64,000 nucleotides of DNA, from positions 56,150 to 120,149 of the forward strand of contig JAGVAD010000015.1 in the NCBI GenBank assembly GCA_020060465.1, read 5' to 3'. The position numbers and the translations under genes were made by a program. Below, one piece after another: positions 23,474 through 26,264 of this stretch. The stretch is from Anaerolineales bacterium. Lineage in GTDB: Bacteria; Chloroflexota; Anaerolineae; Anaerolineales; UBA4823. The notes beneath the pieces were generated by a model. The model searched no databases. It saw nothing but the letters and a program-made list of their open reading frames with translations, and was not told the DNA's origin. Positions within the stretch are counted from its first letter, which is position 1. Every line of letters starts with the position of its first letter.

Positions 23474-24610
23474 TTATATCTCCCCAATGGCATGTGTAGG
23501 GGTGTGATGCAAGGGTAAATAGCCCTGCGCAGCCAGTTCAGACGTGGGTAGCGCAGCTTCATCCGGTTTATCCGAGAGGCCGAAAAGCAGCGCCCCGCGC
23601 TCGCGCCACTCCAGAGCCATCTTTCGCACCTCATGGGTGATAACAATTTCCTGTTCCAGATAACGTTCTACAGGTTCATCTTCAGACAGGCAGCCAAAAC
23701 GCTGCATAGTGGTCAAATATTCGCGTCGGCGGAAGGATTTGAACGGAGTTGGATCTCCAGCTTGTACGCAGCGGTAGATTTCAGTGTGAATCCTGGCCAG
23801 TTCGGGAGATAACTCGCTACGCCTTTCTTCAACCTGAAGGATGAACTGTTCAAAAGAAGTCAGCCGTTGGCTGCGAATGTCGGCTGTCAGTTCTTCCAGA
23901 GAATAAAGCCCGAACCCCAGGATTAAGCAGACGTAAGCCAGATAATCCTGATTATCGCTGGTGAAGGGGTGAAACTCTGGCTGATTGAGCGGCAAATAAG
24001 CCGCTCGAAAGGCAGCCAAATCAAAAGCCGAACCTAACAGGTGGGCGACAGTCTCTTGCACTGCCTGCACCCGCGCCTGGTCAATGACCTTATCATTGCG
24101 CCCGCGCGCTCCTAAGGTGGTCTTATCCAGATCAATCACCACGGCGGCGCCCTGCTCCACCGGAAGCCCTTGCGCTCGACAGAATTGATCGAAATCCGGC
24201 AGGGATGCCCAACGATTCGTCTGGTATATCGTTTGCGACGCGCCCACAGCAGTGATCTGTGCTTCGGTAGGCTGATGGGTCTCCGCTCCAATAAAGGCAA
24301 TTCCGGGCCACTCGCCAGCCGCGCACAGATTCATAAACGCCGCGCCATCCAACAGGCGTGTATCGCCGACAAAGATCAGGCGTTCGATCTTGCCCCCTAA
24401 TTCCTCTAGATGGTAGGCGTGTTTTAGAAATTGGACCACGATTTGCGCATATTCCCTTTCGCTTTTACGGGGGATTTGGTTGTTCGGCAGGCTTAATTGT
24501 GAACGGATCTGCTCTAAGCGCGGCAAGCGCGCTTCGCAGGGTTGCAGGTTGCGGTATAAAACCCAATCGCCTAAGAATTCGGCAACAGTCGCCAGCCCAT
24601 AGTTTTTCAT
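23474..24610 (-). CDS. Uncharacterised HAD-superfamily enzyme, apparently circularly permuted
   Basis: Motif III K49, motif IV FVGDTRLLD (80-88), motif I VIDLDKT (158-164), motif II LFGLSDKP (342-349); ATGA overlap with the aspartokinase stop. Confidence 0.7.
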   Translation of the reverse strand: MKNYGLATVAEFLGDWVLYRNLQPCEARLPRLEQIRSQLSLPNNQIPRKSEREYAQIVVQFLKHAYHLEELGGKIERLIFVGDTRLLDGAAFMNLCAAGEWPGIAFIGAETHQPTEAQITAVGASQTIYQTNRWASLPDFDQFCRAQGLPVEQGAAVVIDLDKTTLGARGRNDKVIDQARVQAVQETVAHLLGSAFDLAAFRAAYLPLNQPEFHPFTSDNQDYLAYVCLILGFGLYSLEELTADIRSQRLTSFEQFILQVEERRSELSPELARIHTEIYRCVQAGDPTPFKSFRRREYLTTMQRFGCLSEDEPVERYLEQEIVITHEVRKMALEWRERGALLFGLSDKPDEAALPTSELAAQGYLPLHHTPTHAIGEI

Positions 24611-26052
24611 TGAGCGCCTCCCGTGTTGGTCGTCACGATCAATTCATGTAATGCGCCCAGGGCAAGGTCTGCATCGGAGGCATCCACCACCAGGCTGATG
24701 GAGACTTCGGAAGATCCCTGGGCAATAGCGATCACATTGACATTGCGTTGCCCCAGGGCGCTGAACACGCGCCCGGCGATCCCAGGCGTGCGGATCATCC
24801 CTGCCCCCACCACCGTCAAGATGGTGACATCCTCCGTCGCCCAAATACGGTCAATGTCGTGTTGGGCAAGCTCGATTGCGAACGCTGCCTCCAACGCCTG
24901 GATTACTTCTCCATTCGAACTGGCGGGGACGGCGAAGCAGATGGATTGTTCGGAGGAGGCTTGGGTGATCAGGGGGACGCTGGTGCCGGTTGAAGCCACC
25001 GCGCCAAATGCACGCGCCGCCACGCCGGGCACGCCCAACATCCCCCGTCCCTCAATGGTAATGAGGCGCTGGTTGCGGATCGCCGTGACCGCTTTAATCT
25101 CGCCGCGGCTGCGCTCGGCGCTATCGGCCACCAGGCGGGTGCCGGGGTGTTGCGGGTTGAAGGTGTTGCAGATGCGCAGGCCAACGCCAGCGTCAATCAC
25201 CGGGCGGATTGTCTTCGGGTGCAGCACTTTTGCGCCGTAATAAGCTAACTCGGCAATCTCACGATAAGTTAATTCGGGAATCGTGGCGGCGTTCGGTACG
25301 GCGCGTGGATCGGCGCTCATCACACCGTCCACGTCCGTCCAGATCCACACCTCGTCGGCGGGCAAGACAGCGCCCAGGATACCGGCGGAATAATCGCTGC
25401 CGCCGCGTCCCAACGTGGTGGTTATCCCTTCGGGGGTGGCGCCTAAAAACCCCGTCACCACCGGGACGCGTCCCTGCGCCAGGATGGGTTCCAGCACGCG
25501 TCGAGTGCGCTCCTGAGTGGCTTTCAGATCGGGATGCGCATTTTGAAAGACGCGGTCGGTGACGATCAGTTGCGTTGCCTCCACCGATTGAGCGGGAACG
25601 CCGGCCGCCTCCAGCGCTGCCGAGAGCAAACGCACACTCATGCGCTCGCCCAGCGACGCCACTGCATCCAGGGCGCGCGGCGTCGCCTCGCCCAGAACAG
25701 CCATCGCCCGACATAAGTTTGAAAACTCAGCGATCAGGTGTCCGATCTCTTGTTTCACCTGCACGCTGCGCGCCAGATCCTGTATCAGCCGGTCGGCGAT
25801 GGCATCGTGCGTGGTGCGCAAGCGGTTCTCGGCTTCATATAGTTGGTGCACCTGACCGCGCGCGGACTGATGGGCGCTATCCAACAATAGATTGGTGACC
25901 CCGGACAAGGCAGAAGTCACGACAATCAGGCGCGGCCAGTCCTGGCGACTGTTTTGCACAATTTGCACTGTCTGGCTCATCGCCTCCGCTGTGCCAACGG
26001 ATGTGCCACCGAATTTCATCACCAATGTAGGAAGCTTATTTTGTTCGGGCAT
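24607..26052 (-). CDS. lysC: Monofunctional aspartate kinase with two ACT domains (probably Thr-sensitive)
   Basis: [47 protein letters not shown] motifs ITQASSE and IAQGSSE. Confidence 0.95.
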
Positions 26053-26078
26053 AGTGATCCTCTTGAGCGATTGAATGT

Positions 26079-26109
26079 AATAAAAAACGCCCCAGGCGGT
26101 CTGGGGCGT
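26079..26109 (-). terminator. Attenuator terminator hairpin
   Basis: ACGCCCCAG-accgc-CUGGGGCGU followed by UUUUUAUU, upstream of the aspartokinase RBS. Confidence 0.9.
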
Positions 26110-26141
26110 AGATGAGTCGGGTTATCATGAATAGAAGCCAT

Positions 26142-26225
26142 TCACCCGCGCCAACGCCCCGCCCTTCGGCGGTTGGTAGTAGTGCGAATATAGGCGCAGG
26201 CAATGCCAGATGAATACTCGTTCAT
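26142..26225 (-). CDS. thrL: Thr/Ile attenuator leader peptide (27 aa)
   Basis: MNEYSSGIACAYIRTTTNRRRAGRWRG*: tandem Thr codons and two Ile codons; its GGGGCGU is complementary to the terminator 5' arm ACGCCCC (antiterminator). Confidence 0.8.
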   Translation of the reverse strand: MNEYSSGIACAYIRTTTNRRRAGRWRG

Positions 26226-26235
26226 GATTTGCGCA

Positions 26236-26264
26236 ACTATATCAGCCCTGTTTTCAACCGTCAA
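26236..26264 (-). promoter_or_regulatory. Sigma70 promoter of the leader-aspartokinase-HAD operon
   Basis: TTGACG-N17-TATAGT, 10 nt before the leader ATG. Confidence 0.8.

What the first reader, a model, noticed from the sequence alone, without database searches (positions are those of the whole stretch)
23474..26264. Circularly permuted HAD enzyme coupled to aspartokinase under a threonine attenuator: candidate new Thr-pathway enzyme
Seen: all four HAD catalytic motifs are present, but in the order III (K49), IV (FVGDTRLLD, 80-88), I (VIDLDKT, 158-164), helical cap, II (EVRKMALEWRERGALLFGLSDKP, S346). The gene's ATG overlaps the aspartokinase stop (ATGA), and both lie downstream of a Thr/Ile attenuator. 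Established: canonical HAD order is I-II-III-IV; thr operons normally carry homoserine kinase ThrB, and Pseudomonas ThrH is a HAD phosphoserine:homoserine phosphotransferase that can substitute for it. Inference: this permuted HAD may be a non-orthologous homoserine-phosphorylating enzyme, or a phospho-homoserine/phospho-threonine phosphatase, that linear HMMs would miss.
Basis: partly seen in the sequence, partly recalled or inferred. Interest (0 to 1): 0.85.

Follow-up and report, generated by a model that had tools for sequence, protein, structure and literature searches.

The report
Permuted HAD enzyme replacing homoserine kinase
An unannotated Chloroflexota protein built on a rearranged version of a common phosphatase fold sits in threonine-synthesis operons of genomes that lack every known homoserine kinase, and is probably the missing enzyme for that step.

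Summary
The 378-aa ORF (23474-24610, minus strand) starts in an ATGA overlap with the stop of the genome's only detected aspartokinase. Upstream lie a Thr-codon leader peptide and a terminator/antiterminator pair. It matches no Pfam, NCBIfam or PDB sequence, yet belongs to a large family annotated only as hypothetical. All four HAD motifs are at least 90% conserved, each on the expected predicted element (AlphaFold pLDDT 97.7), in the order III-IV-I-cap-II. Weak profile matches to HAD models fall in the same permuted order. Fold searches were not decisive.

Function is inferred from comparative genomics only. In 80 related loci the commonest gene order is ask-asd-X-thrC, and seven Ask-X fusion clusters exist. 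In 401 genomes of the phylum, X occurs in 35. None of these has ThrB or HomK above cut-off, against ThrB in 276 of the 366 without X. All 34 tested have homoserine dehydrogenase. SerB shows no such complementarity.

Best reading (about 0.6): X is a non-orthologous homoserine-phosphorylating enzyme working through a phospho-Asp160 intermediate, with the phosphate donor unknown. This would address one of the main remaining gaps in amino-acid pathway reconstruction and can be tested by thrB complementation.

The parts
26236..26264 (-). sigma-70-like promoter (TTGACG, 17-nt spacer, TATAGT, TG before the -10)
   Evidence: 10 of 12 matches. It was the only promoter-like site found in 22800-26800; shuffles gave a mean of 2.2, so the match alone is weak. 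Its position just upstream of the leader ORF is what makes it plausible.
26142..26225 (-). leader peptide ORF, 27 codons, with three consecutive Thr codons (26183-26175) and two Ile codons
   Evidence: translation. Related loci carry leaders with runs of 3-7 Thr upstream of ask. Six of 42 upstream-of-ask regions have at least 5 Thr in a 6-residue window, against 1 of 2721 control tiles.
26080..26162 (-). attenuator RNA: an intrinsic terminator (stem 26109-26087 plus T run) and an alternative antiterminator (GGGGCGU at 26160-26154 pairing with the terminator 5' arm)
   Evidence: terminator: 9 pairs, 7 of them G-C; the whole leader folds at -60.8 kcal/mol, z -4.9; antiterminator -25.6 kcal/mol, terminator hairpin alone -17.9. 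No Rfam family matches.
24607..26052 (-). aspartokinase (ask), the only one detected in this assembly
   Evidence: AA_kinase plus ACT; TIGR00657 413 bits against a cut-off of 209; the only asp_kinases match above cut-off in the genome, which is 83% complete.
23474..24610 (-). X: a 378-aa protein with a circularly permuted HAD-like layout and a roughly 150-residue helical cap; candidate homoserine-phosphorylating enzyme
   Evidence: fold and motifs. (context and phyletic pattern).
23396..23454 (-). inverted pair of a dispersed 17-mer just after X's stop codon, followed by TTTT on the transcript: likely end of the operon
   Evidence: copies at 23396 on the - strand and 23438 on the + strand. The terminator role is inferred. 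The simple terminator scan did not list it, probably because the loop is about 25 nt.

Best explanation
X is a circularly permuted member of the HAD phosphotransferase/phosphatase superfamily. The new termini lie after strand S3, so the sequence order is motif III, IV, I, large helical cap, II. It does the job of homoserine kinase in Chloroflexota lineages that have neither ThrB nor HomK.

Proposed mechanism (inferred). Asp160 accepts a phosphoryl group from a donor and forms an aspartyl-phosphate enzyme. Asp162 acts as the general acid/base. Ser346, Lys49, Asp83 and Asp88 hold the phosphate and Mg2+. The cap residues (GARGRND 167-173, TxDNQD 217-222, GDPTPFKxFR 285-294) bind L-homoserine, which takes the phosphate to give O-phospho-L-homoserine, the substrate of threonine synthase. 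The donor is unknown: it could be ATP, beta-aspartyl phosphate or phosphoserine.

In this window the gene is translationally coupled to the sole aspartokinase. The pair is controlled by a threonine leader-peptide attenuator.

Shown here: motif conservation and placement, permuted profile matches, gene order, fusions, phyletic complementarity and the attenuator's anatomy. Inferred: the fold assignment in three dimensions, the substrate and the chemistry.
For: Fold.
- All four motifs are at least 90% conserved in 65 diverse members.
- Each motif sits on the expected predicted element.
- In the per-member Pfam scan, PF00702 is the family matched by most members, but only 3 of 65. The best is P0232, at 26.6 bits against a cut-off of 26.4, with protein 145-353 on profile 3-142 of 191.
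- In P0265, residues 54-86 match the C-terminal end of HAD_2 (profile 139-171 of 178), while residues 247-327 match PF00702 positions 44-127.
- The family profile's best PDB hit is the HAD hydrolase 2hcf_A. Its three pieces are in permuted order, but E is 0.19.
- In hhalign against 30 HAD_2 domains, the three best local alignments are exactly motifs III+IV, I and II.
- The best VIA match is HAD phosphatase 6iah_A: Z 6.5, model 155-374 on chain 1-166.

Pathway.
- asd lies directly upstream of X in most GTDB loci scanned.
- Among 80 MAG loci the commonest order is ask-asd-X-thrC (19 loci). Of 56 well-flanked loci, 48 have ask, asd or thrC nearby.
- In L059, thrC (TIGR00260, 222 bits) starts 4 nt after X.
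- Seven in-frame Ask-X fusion clusters exist.
- Thr-run leader peptides are enriched upstream of ask.

Phyletic pattern.
- X is in 35 of 401 genomes.
- ThrB is above cut-off in 0 of 35 of these, against 276 of 366 without X.
- HomK is in 0 of 35 of them, and in 33 of the full 401.
- hom is in 34 of 34 and thrC in 5 of 5 tested.
- The best 'thrB-like' hit in the own genome is mevalonate kinase.
- SerB is in 3 of 401 overall, so X does not complement SerB.
- In X-negative genomes of the same order, thrB sits beside a thrC that is 70-73% identical to this genome's. X sits beside such a thrC in other lineages.
Against: - No activity was measured.
- The window protein itself has no match at E up to 1 in Pfam or NCBIfam and none at E up to 10 among PDB sequences.
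- Each profile match is individually weak. hhalign probabilities are 0.5-21%, and only 3 of 65 members touch PF00702.
- Foldseek found nothing at E 0.001 or better.
- The VIA top hit (Z 6.5) is tied with Rossmann methyltransferases at Z 6.3.
- No coordinates were available, so convergence of the six residues into one site is untested.
- Most HAD enzymes are phosphatases.
- Linkage is not universal. X had no Thr-pathway gene detected within the flanks held in 16 of 80 loci, and 8 of 56 well-flanked loci had none.
- Between 46 and 59 of the 401 genomes have none of ThrB, HomK or X. Three of 5 such genomes tested still have a thrC-like hit at 167-176 bits. Further unknown solutions therefore exist, and absence of ThrB does not by itself point to X.
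- The X-positive genomes are not independent: 26 of 35 belong to one family.
- The own assembly is 83% complete and shows no hom match.
Confidence: 0.6

Rival explanations
1. X is a HAD phosphatase rather than a phosphotransferase. For example, it could be the phylum's missing phosphoserine phosphatase, or a phosphatase acting on O-phosphohomoserine, phosphothreonine or beta-aspartyl phosphate for proofreading or flux control. Homoserine would then be phosphorylated by an unidentified kinase.
For: Hydrolysis is the default chemistry of DxD-type HAD enzymes (established knowledge). SerB (TIGR00338) is above cut-off in only 2 of 35 X-positive genomes. Some genomes lack ThrB, HomK and X yet keep a thrC-like gene, so unknown kinases may exist.
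Against: SerB is equally missing from X-negative genomes (3 of 401 overall), so X does not complement it. ThrB and HomK do show complementarity. A phosphatase that destroys a pathway intermediate is an odd fit for a Thr-attenuated biosynthetic operon placed between asd and thrC, or for a fusion to aspartokinase.
Confidence: 0.13
2. X has another role tied to aspartokinase or aspartate-semialdehyde dehydrogenase rather than to homoserine. It could be a regulatory or scaffolding partner, or an enzyme of a branch that starts from aspartyl phosphate or aspartate semialdehyde. On this view its anticorrelation with ThrB reflects lineage history.
For: The tightest neighbours are ask and asd, not hom. 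X is fused to Ask. Twenty-six of the 35 X-positive genomes are one family, so the phyletic pattern rests on about 7 families.
Against: thrC lies within 1.5 kb downstream in 38 of 63 loci that have enough downstream sequence. Conservation of a complete catalytic HAD motif set argues for an enzyme. X-positive genomes keep hom and thrC but have no known way to make phosphohomoserine.
Confidence: 0.12
3. X is not a HAD relative at all. It would be a generic Rossmann-like alpha/beta domain with a helical insert, in which the HAD-like motifs arose by convergence.
For: Sequential structure aligners give Rossmann methyltransferases and dehydrogenases at Z 5-6.4, level with the HAD hit. Foldseek has no significant hit. 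All HAD profile matches are weak.
Against: Four separate motifs are each conserved and each lie on the structural element that carries them in HAD. Independent profile tools pick HAD models, and only at those motifs, in a consistent permuted register. Beyond the family's own clusters, the language-model feature search returns HAD_2/Hydrolase clusters, at scores of 0.76-0.77 that count only as leads.
Confidence: 0.05

Closest known systems
ThrH of Pseudomonas aeruginosa (HAD-family phosphoserine:homoserine phosphotransferase; NCBIfam TIGR02137)
   Same: The catalytic motif set is of HAD type, and the proposed product is O-phosphohomoserine made through a phospho-aspartyl enzyme. Like ThrH, X would substitute for ThrB. 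ThrH's role is taken from passages of the GapMind 2026 preprint citing Singh et al. 2004.
   Different: X has no sequence match to TIGR02137. Its motif order is permuted (III-IV-I-II) and its helical cap is about 150 residues. It lies in ask/asd/thrC operons and is fused to Ask in some lineages. Its donor is unknown.
ThrB (GHMP-family ATP-dependent homoserine kinase, TIGR00191)
   Same: It is inferred to perform the same pathway step. It occupies a similar genomic position next to thrC or inside a thr operon. The two are mutually exclusive in distribution.
   Different: The fold is unrelated. X has no GHMP match. No ATP-binding motif was recognised.
HomK / BT2402 / ThrB2 (TIGR02535, phosphoglycerate-mutase-like homoserine phosphotransferase)
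   Same: It is another non-orthologous replacement of ThrB, whose donor is also thought not to be ATP (passages of the GapMind 2026 preprint). It is also mutually exclusive with X in this phylum.
   Different: The fold is different. HomK has been confirmed by complementation (preprint), whereas X has not been tested.
E. coli thrLABC operon and ThrA (aspartokinase-homoserine dehydrogenase fusion); recalled textbook knowledge
   Same: A Thr/Ile-rich leader peptide with a terminator/antiterminator controls an operon that begins with aspartokinase. Aspartokinase is also fused to a later pathway enzyme.
   Different: Here the leader has no Rfam match. The operon is ask-X in this window and ask-asd-X-thrC in relatives. 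The fusion partner is X, and JGI names these fusions 'aspartokinase / homoserine dehydrogenase 1'.
Canonical C1-capped HAD phosphatases (for example Tt82, PDB 6iah; hydrolase 2hcf)
   Same: These are the best structural and sequence-profile matches. Model residues 155-374 align to 6iah_A residues 1-166. Motifs I, II and IV align to 2hcf_A.
   Different: The scores are weak (Z 6.5, E 0.19). The segment carrying motifs III and IV precedes motif I instead of following motif II.

Membership tests
HAD superfamily | Motif I, DxDx(T/V), at the C-terminal end of core strand S1 | tested here: met
   D160, D162 and T164 are at least 90% conserved in 65 members. Predicted strand 155-160 ends at D160. hhalign places 155-166 on HAD_2 positions 7-18.
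HAD superfamily | Motif II, Ser/Thr at the end of strand S2 | tested here: met
   S346 is at least 90% conserved, and D347 and P349 are invariant. It follows strand 341-345. hhalign places 328-349 on HAD_2 positions 94-115, weakly (P 0.07-0.13).
HAD superfamily | Motif III Lys before the helix preceding S4, and motif IV acidic residues (GDxxxD) at the end of S4 | tested here: met
   K49 lies before helix 52-68. G82 is invariant, D83 and D88 are at least 90% conserved, and they sit at the end of strand 77-82. hhalign aligns 31-94 to HAD_2 positions 127-180, with Lys on Lys (E 0.001-0.006).
HAD superfamily | Linear order of motifs I-II-III-IV | tested here: not met
   The order is III (49), IV (82-88), I (160-164), II (346). 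Profile pieces are in permuted order. This is the variant feature: it is consistent with a circular permutation, not with a canonical member.
HAD superfamily | Significant match to a curated HAD profile (Pfam clan) | tested here: inconclusive
   The window protein has no hit at E up to 1. Three of 65 members hit PF00702, the best at 26.6 bits against a cut-off of 26.4. Single members hit HAD_2, HAD, HAD_PNKP and Acid_phosphat_B below cut-off.
HAD superfamily | Rossmannoid HAD fold, with the catalytic residues meeting in one site | tested here: inconclusive
   The top VIA hit is a HAD phosphatase (Z 6.5, rmsd 3.8, 150 residues) but is tied with methyltransferases. Foldseek gave none. Residue distances could not be measured because no coordinates are returned.
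ThrH (TIGR02137) / SerB (TIGR00338) phosphoserine-phosphatase-type HADs | Score above the NCBIfam cut-off | tested here: not met
   The NCBIfam scan of X found 0 families at E up to 1.
ThrB (TIGR00191) and HomK (TIGR02535) | Score above the NCBIfam cut-off | tested here: not met
   The NCBIfam scan of X found 0 families. X is therefore a functional analogue at most, not a member.
Leader-peptide transcription attenuator (thr-operon type) | Short ORF with a run of regulatory codons, followed by mutually exclusive antiterminator and terminator hairpins upstream of the first gene | tested here: met
   The 27-codon ORF has 3 Thr codons. The terminator is and the alternative pairing. Thr runs in relatives are enriched against controls. 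There is no match to any Rfam leader family, so this is not a member of the curated Thr-leader RNA family.

The most novel reading that the evidence does not exclude
X takes its phosphate not from ATP but from beta-aspartyl phosphate, the product of the aspartokinase it is coupled or fused to. Aspartokinase plus X would then act together as a two-part homoserine kinase.

The donor (aspartyl phosphate) and the product (O-phosphohomoserine) differ only by C=O versus CH2. One amino-acid pocket could therefore serve both halves of a ping-pong reaction through phospho-Asp160. The ATP cost per threonine would equal that of the classical pathway.

This would be a new reaction (aspartyl-phosphate:homoserine phosphotransferase) on the first naturally circularly permuted HAD fold that my literature searches could find.
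Probability: 0.2. Interest if true: 0.9.

Novelty: new variant of a known kind. Interest (0 to 1): 0.8.

Why it matters
[quoted passage not shown] It is missing in 16 of 208 prototrophs (GapMind 2026 preprint, passages read). Such gaps lead to false predictions of auxotrophy and cross-feeding.

This family gives a concrete, testable candidate for a whole set of Chloroflexota lineages. These include one family in which all 26 sampled species carry X and none carries ThrB or HomK.

The family is large: at least 3348 clusters at 90% identity matched among the 8000 candidates scored. Its non-fused members carry only the name 'hypothetical protein' where a name was given, and the Ask-X fusions are named for their aspartokinase part. 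It is invisible to Pfam and NCBIfam because its HAD core is circularly permuted. It is therefore also a worked example of how permutation hides enzymes from linear profile models.

If the donor proves to be aspartyl phosphate, that would be new pathway chemistry.

Tried and rejected
- Foldseek against PDB: no match at E 0.001 or better.
- pdb_via second look: only generic Rossmann folds, best RedM methyltransferase at Z 6.4.
- PDB sequence search with the single protein: nothing at E up to 10.
- Rfam on 20000-30000: no family at E up to 1.
It worked with a 16-member alignment.
- Complex prediction of aspartokinase (alignment A3) with X (alignment A1): no verdict, score 0.00. This is evidence neither for nor against binding.
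- ESM Atlas on the N-terminal extension of the distant ~610-aa forms (P0239, residues 1-238): no usable hit. That extension is poorly conserved and has no Pfam match.
- Thr leaders upstream of asd in the GTDB loci L010-L038: none convincing.
- Cluster look-up for names: only 'hypothetical protein'.
- X as a replacement for homoserine dehydrogenase: rejected, because hom is present in 34 of 34 X-positive genomes.
- X as a replacement for SerB: rejected as an explanation of its distribution.
- The weak ThrB-like hit in the own genome as a divergent ThrB: rejected, because it is mevalonate kinase.
The two parts were compared separately instead.
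Full report
**1. What is there**

On the minus strand, a 481-aa aspartokinase (24607-26052) has AA_kinase plus ACT domains and scores 413 bits to TIGR00657. It is followed by a 378-aa ORF, X (23474-24610). X's ATG overlaps the aspartokinase stop as ATGA. The downstream 127-aa ORF (23079-23462) has no family match. 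It overlaps a repeat hairpin and is probably not a gene. The aspartokinase is the only asp_kinases match above cut-off in this 83%-complete assembly.

**2. The attenuator**

A promoter-like site lies at 26264-26236 (10 of 12 matches). It precedes a 27-codon ORF at 26225-26142 that contains three consecutive Thr codons and two Ile codons. Then comes a G+C-rich hairpin (26109-26087) with a T run, 35 nt before the aspartokinase start.

- The whole leader folds far better than shuffles (z -4.9).
- The leader's tail (GGGGCGU) repeats the terminator's 3' arm. When that arm is left out, the tail pairs with the terminator's 5' arm at -25.6 kcal/mol. The terminator alone folds at -17.9.
- This is the anatomy of a classical leader-peptide attenuator. 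That a ribosome stalled at the Thr codons frees the antiterminator is inferred.
- No Rfam family matches.

Three Thr codons alone would not be remarkable. Related loci, however, carry leaders with runs of 3-7 Thr upstream of their aspartokinase. At least 5 Thr in a 6-residue window of a short ORF occurs in 6 of 42 such upstream regions, against 1 of 2721 control tiles from the same loci.

**3. X is a large unannotated family**

- X has no Pfam or NCBIfam match at E up to 1 and no PDB sequence match at E up to 10.
- At least 3348 clusters at 90% identity match it among the 8000 candidates scored. Every name shown is 'hypothetical protein'.
- 347 representatives at 50% identity match it in the 1.84-billion-protein library.
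- Cluster look-ups again give only 'hypothetical protein', from Chloroflexota and Roseiflexaceae MAGs.
- A DNA-pattern scan of GTDB species genomes confirmed 585 of 598 matched stretches as relatives. The 80 best are nearly all labelled Anaerolineae, Chloroflexota or similar.

**4. The permuted HAD reading**

*Conservation.* In a 65-member alignment (26-54% identity to X), the invariant or at least 90%-conserved positions include the following:
- PRK 47-49
- G82, D83 and D88
- W134
- D160, D162 and T164
- G170 and R171
- T217, D219, N220 and D222
- T288, F293, R294 and E297
- S346, D347 and P349

*Placement.* The AlphaFold2 model is very confident (pLDDT 97.7, pTM 0.93). Its elements place each motif where the HAD fold puts it:
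- The Lys lies just before the helix (52-68) that precedes a strand ending in GD (77-82). These are motifs III and IV on S4.
- A further strand follows, then a hairpin and a helix.
- A strand then ends in DxD (155-160). This is motif I on S1.
- A small beta-bridge follows where HAD has its flap.
- Helices from 173 to 320 form a C1-type cap.
- A helix and a strand end just before S346. This is motif II on S2.
- A last strand (372-376) is S3.

The chain therefore starts where canonical HADs have their C2-cap site and ends after S3. That is a circular permutation.

*Sequence evidence for the permuted order.*
- PF00702 is the Pfam family hit by the most members, though only 3 of 65. The best is P0232 at 26.6 bits against a cut-off of 26.4, with residues 145-353 on profile positions 3-142.
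- In P0265, N-terminal residues 54-86 match the C-terminal end of HAD_2. Residues 247-327 match the first two-thirds of PF00702.
- The family profile's best PDB hit is HAD hydrolase 2hcf_A. Query 148-174, 310-339 and 62-100 fall on chain 3-29, 85-114 and 157-195, but E is 0.19.
- In hhalign against 30 HAD_2 domains taken from Chloroflexota genomes, the top three local alignments are the motif III+IV segment, motif I and motif II. E values are 0.001-0.13 and probabilities 0.5-21%.
- Language-model features place HAD_2/Hydrolase clusters next after the family's own clusters. The scores of 0.76-0.77 are a lead only.

*Structure searches were not decisive.*
- Foldseek found nothing.
- The all-against-representatives VIA search ranks a HAD phosphatase first: 6iah_A, Z 6.5, rmsd 3.8, 150 residues. 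Model 155-374 falls on chain 1-166, exactly the range the permutation predicts. Rossmann methyltransferases follow at Z 6.3.
- The second look gave only generic Rossmann folds.
- I could not measure distances in the model.

I put the permuted-HAD assignment at about 0.85.

**5. Genomic context**

- In 30 GTDB-species loci, aspartokinase is adjacent to X only here and in L013.
- The gene directly upstream is aspartate-semialdehyde dehydrogenase in 15 of the 21 other loci scanned: L010-L015, L017, L021-L023, L025, L026, L028 and L030. L013 reads ask-asd-X.
- hom-asd-X occurs in G086 and G320.

Gene orders among the 80 MAG loci:

| Order | Loci |
|---|---|
| ask-asd-X-thrC | 19 |
| ask-asd-X | 9 |
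| X with convergent thrC | 8 |
| thrC-ask-X | 7 |
| ask-X-thrC | 5 |
| asd-X-thrC | 4 |
| X-thrC | 4 |
| rarer orders holding at least one of these genes | 8 |
| X with none of these genes detected | 16 |

- Of 56 loci with enough sequence on both sides, 48 have at least one of ask, asd or thrC. The other 8 do not.
- In L059, asd (TIGR00978, 427 bits), X and thrC (TIGR00260, 222 bits) follow one another. X and thrC are 4 nt apart.
- Where Thr genes are missing, the usual upstream neighbour is dCTP deaminase.
- Seven clusters of 841-896-aa proteins are in-frame Ask-X fusions. Ask runs to about residue 472, a linker of roughly 10-15 residues follows, and X continues from residue 2. JGI names five of them 'aspartokinase / homoserine dehydrogenase 1'.

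**6. Phyletic pattern**

In an even sample of 401 genomes of the phylum:

| Feature | X-positive genomes | Other genomes or whole sample |
|---|---|---|
| X | 35 of 401 (33 of 352 high-quality) | - |
| ThrB (TIGR00191) above cut-off | 0 of 35 (best 45 bits) | 276 of 366 without X |
| HomK (TIGR02535) above cut-off | 0 of 35 | 33 of 401 overall |
| hom (PF00742) | 34 of 34 tested | not counted |
| thrC above cut-off | 5 of 5 tested | not counted |
| SerB (TIGR00338) above cut-off | 2 of 35 | 3 of 401 overall |

- X occurs in seven families, one of which has it in 26 of 26 species.
- The best ThrB-like hit in the own genome is mevalonate kinase.
- HomK fills other ThrB-less families, for example 10 of 10 in f27. 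Only two genomes have both ThrB and HomK.
- SerB is nearly absent everywhere, so X's distribution does not track it.
- In three same-order genomes without X, thrB lies beside a thrC that is 70-73% identical to this genome's. In other lineages X lies beside a thrC of 74-83% identity.

Caveats:
- The genomes are related, not independent.
- The own genome shows no hom, most likely because it is incomplete.
- Between 46 and 59 genomes have none of the three enzymes. Three of 5 such genomes tested keep a borderline thrC-like gene, so at least one more solution, or auxotrophy, exists.
- Six genomes flagged as unpublished (G161, G026, G263, G310, G158, G254) are in these tallies. All are ThrB-positive and X-negative. 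Leaving them out gives 270 of 360.

**7. Mechanism**

The most economical reading is that X supplies O-phosphohomoserine to threonine synthase. It would work like ThrH, through a phospho-aspartyl enzyme. D160 would be the nucleophile and D162 the acid/base. S346, K49, D83 and D88 would bind phosphate and Mg2+. The many conserved Arg, Lys, Asp and Glu residues of the flap and cap would hold an amino-acid substrate. All of this is inferred.

The donor is open. Because X is coupled or fused to aspartokinase, and because aspartyl phosphate is nearly isosteric with the product, I keep aspartyl phosphate as a bold but untested option. A complex prediction for Ask and X returned no verdict.

**8. What is known**

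- Passages of the GapMind 2026 preprint (10.1101/2024.10.14.618325) state that thrB is still missing in 16 of 208 prototrophs. They state that hisN, hisI, serB and thrB account for 65% of remaining gaps. They also state that HomK (BT2402) was confirmed by complementation and that ThrH substitutes for ThrB in Pseudomonas. The word 'Chloroflex' does not occur in its main text.
- Searches for homoserine kinase with Chloroflexi, Chloroflexus, Anaerolineae, Roseiflexus, Thermoflexus or Ardenticatena found no paper proposing a substitute (search listings only).
- Searches for 'circularly permuted' with 'haloacid dehalogenase', and for 'circular permutation' with 'HAD superfamily', found no description of a permuted HAD enzyme. 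I saw the listings and read passages of PMC2575518 and PMC4256011.
- Subscription journals and supplements were not searchable, so prior description cannot be excluded.

**9. Verdict**

The function has not been tested experimentally. The finding is a new variant of a known kind: a HAD phosphotransferase in the manner of ThrH, but non-orthologous, circularly permuted and previously unrecognised. Interest is 0.8.

Noticed in passing
window 23396-23412(-), 23438-23454(+), 26305-26321(+), 37588-37604(+), 62939-62955(-), 62982-62998(+): A 17-mer, AAACCTGCGGGAYRTTC, occurs 6 times (up to 2 mismatches) where 0 are expected. Two inverted pairs could form hairpins, one of them right after X's stop. 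It looks like a REP-like dispersed repeat or a shared terminator module.
   Followed up: partly
L086:5451-7964 (+): An 837-aa ORF upstream of X appears to fuse aspartokinase with aspartate-semialdehyde dehydrogenase. I did not verify this with a domain scan.
   Followed up: no
P0276-P0281, P0127: The Ask-X fusion proteins are named 'bifunctional aspartokinase / homoserine dehydrogenase 1' by JGI, although their C-terminal half is X, not a dehydrogenase.
   Followed up: yes
G015:C406:5471-6010 and G002:C68:3551-4087: A canonical HAD_2 gene lies 2-2.5 kb from homoserine dehydrogenase in two X-positive genomes of family f13. Its role is unknown.
   Followed up: no
L027, L030, L034, L035 (upstream of asd): Short ORFs ending in a recurring T-x-WEE(R) peptide lie upstream of asd-X in one family. 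They could be a conserved leader or an RNA element.
   Followed up: no
phylum sample of 401 genomes: Classical SerB (TIGR00338) is above cut-off in only 3 of 401 genomes. Between 46 and 59 genomes have none of ThrB, HomK or X, and some of these keep a thrC-like gene. Further unknown enzymes for both steps are likely in this phylum.
   Followed up: partly
own genome G000: No homoserine dehydrogenase (PF00742) match was found in the 83%-complete assembly. thrC lies about 41 kb from ask-X, at C15:123237-124187, just outside the window. It stands between a peptidase M28 gene and a SpoIIE-type phosphatase gene.
   Followed up: partly
P0226 (816 aa), P0239, P0251, P0258, P0260 (~610 aa): Distant X homologues (about 30% identity, motif I as DLDQT/DLDHT/DMDRT, motif II as SDRP) carry poorly conserved N-terminal extensions of 240-435 residues. 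These extensions have no Pfam or Atlas match.
   Followed up: partly
window 20495-23046 (-): Downstream of the operon lie a PD40/beta-propeller lipoprotein-like gene (21865-23046) and a GT87-family membrane glycosyltransferase (20495-21781). They are unrelated to the finding.
   Followed up: no
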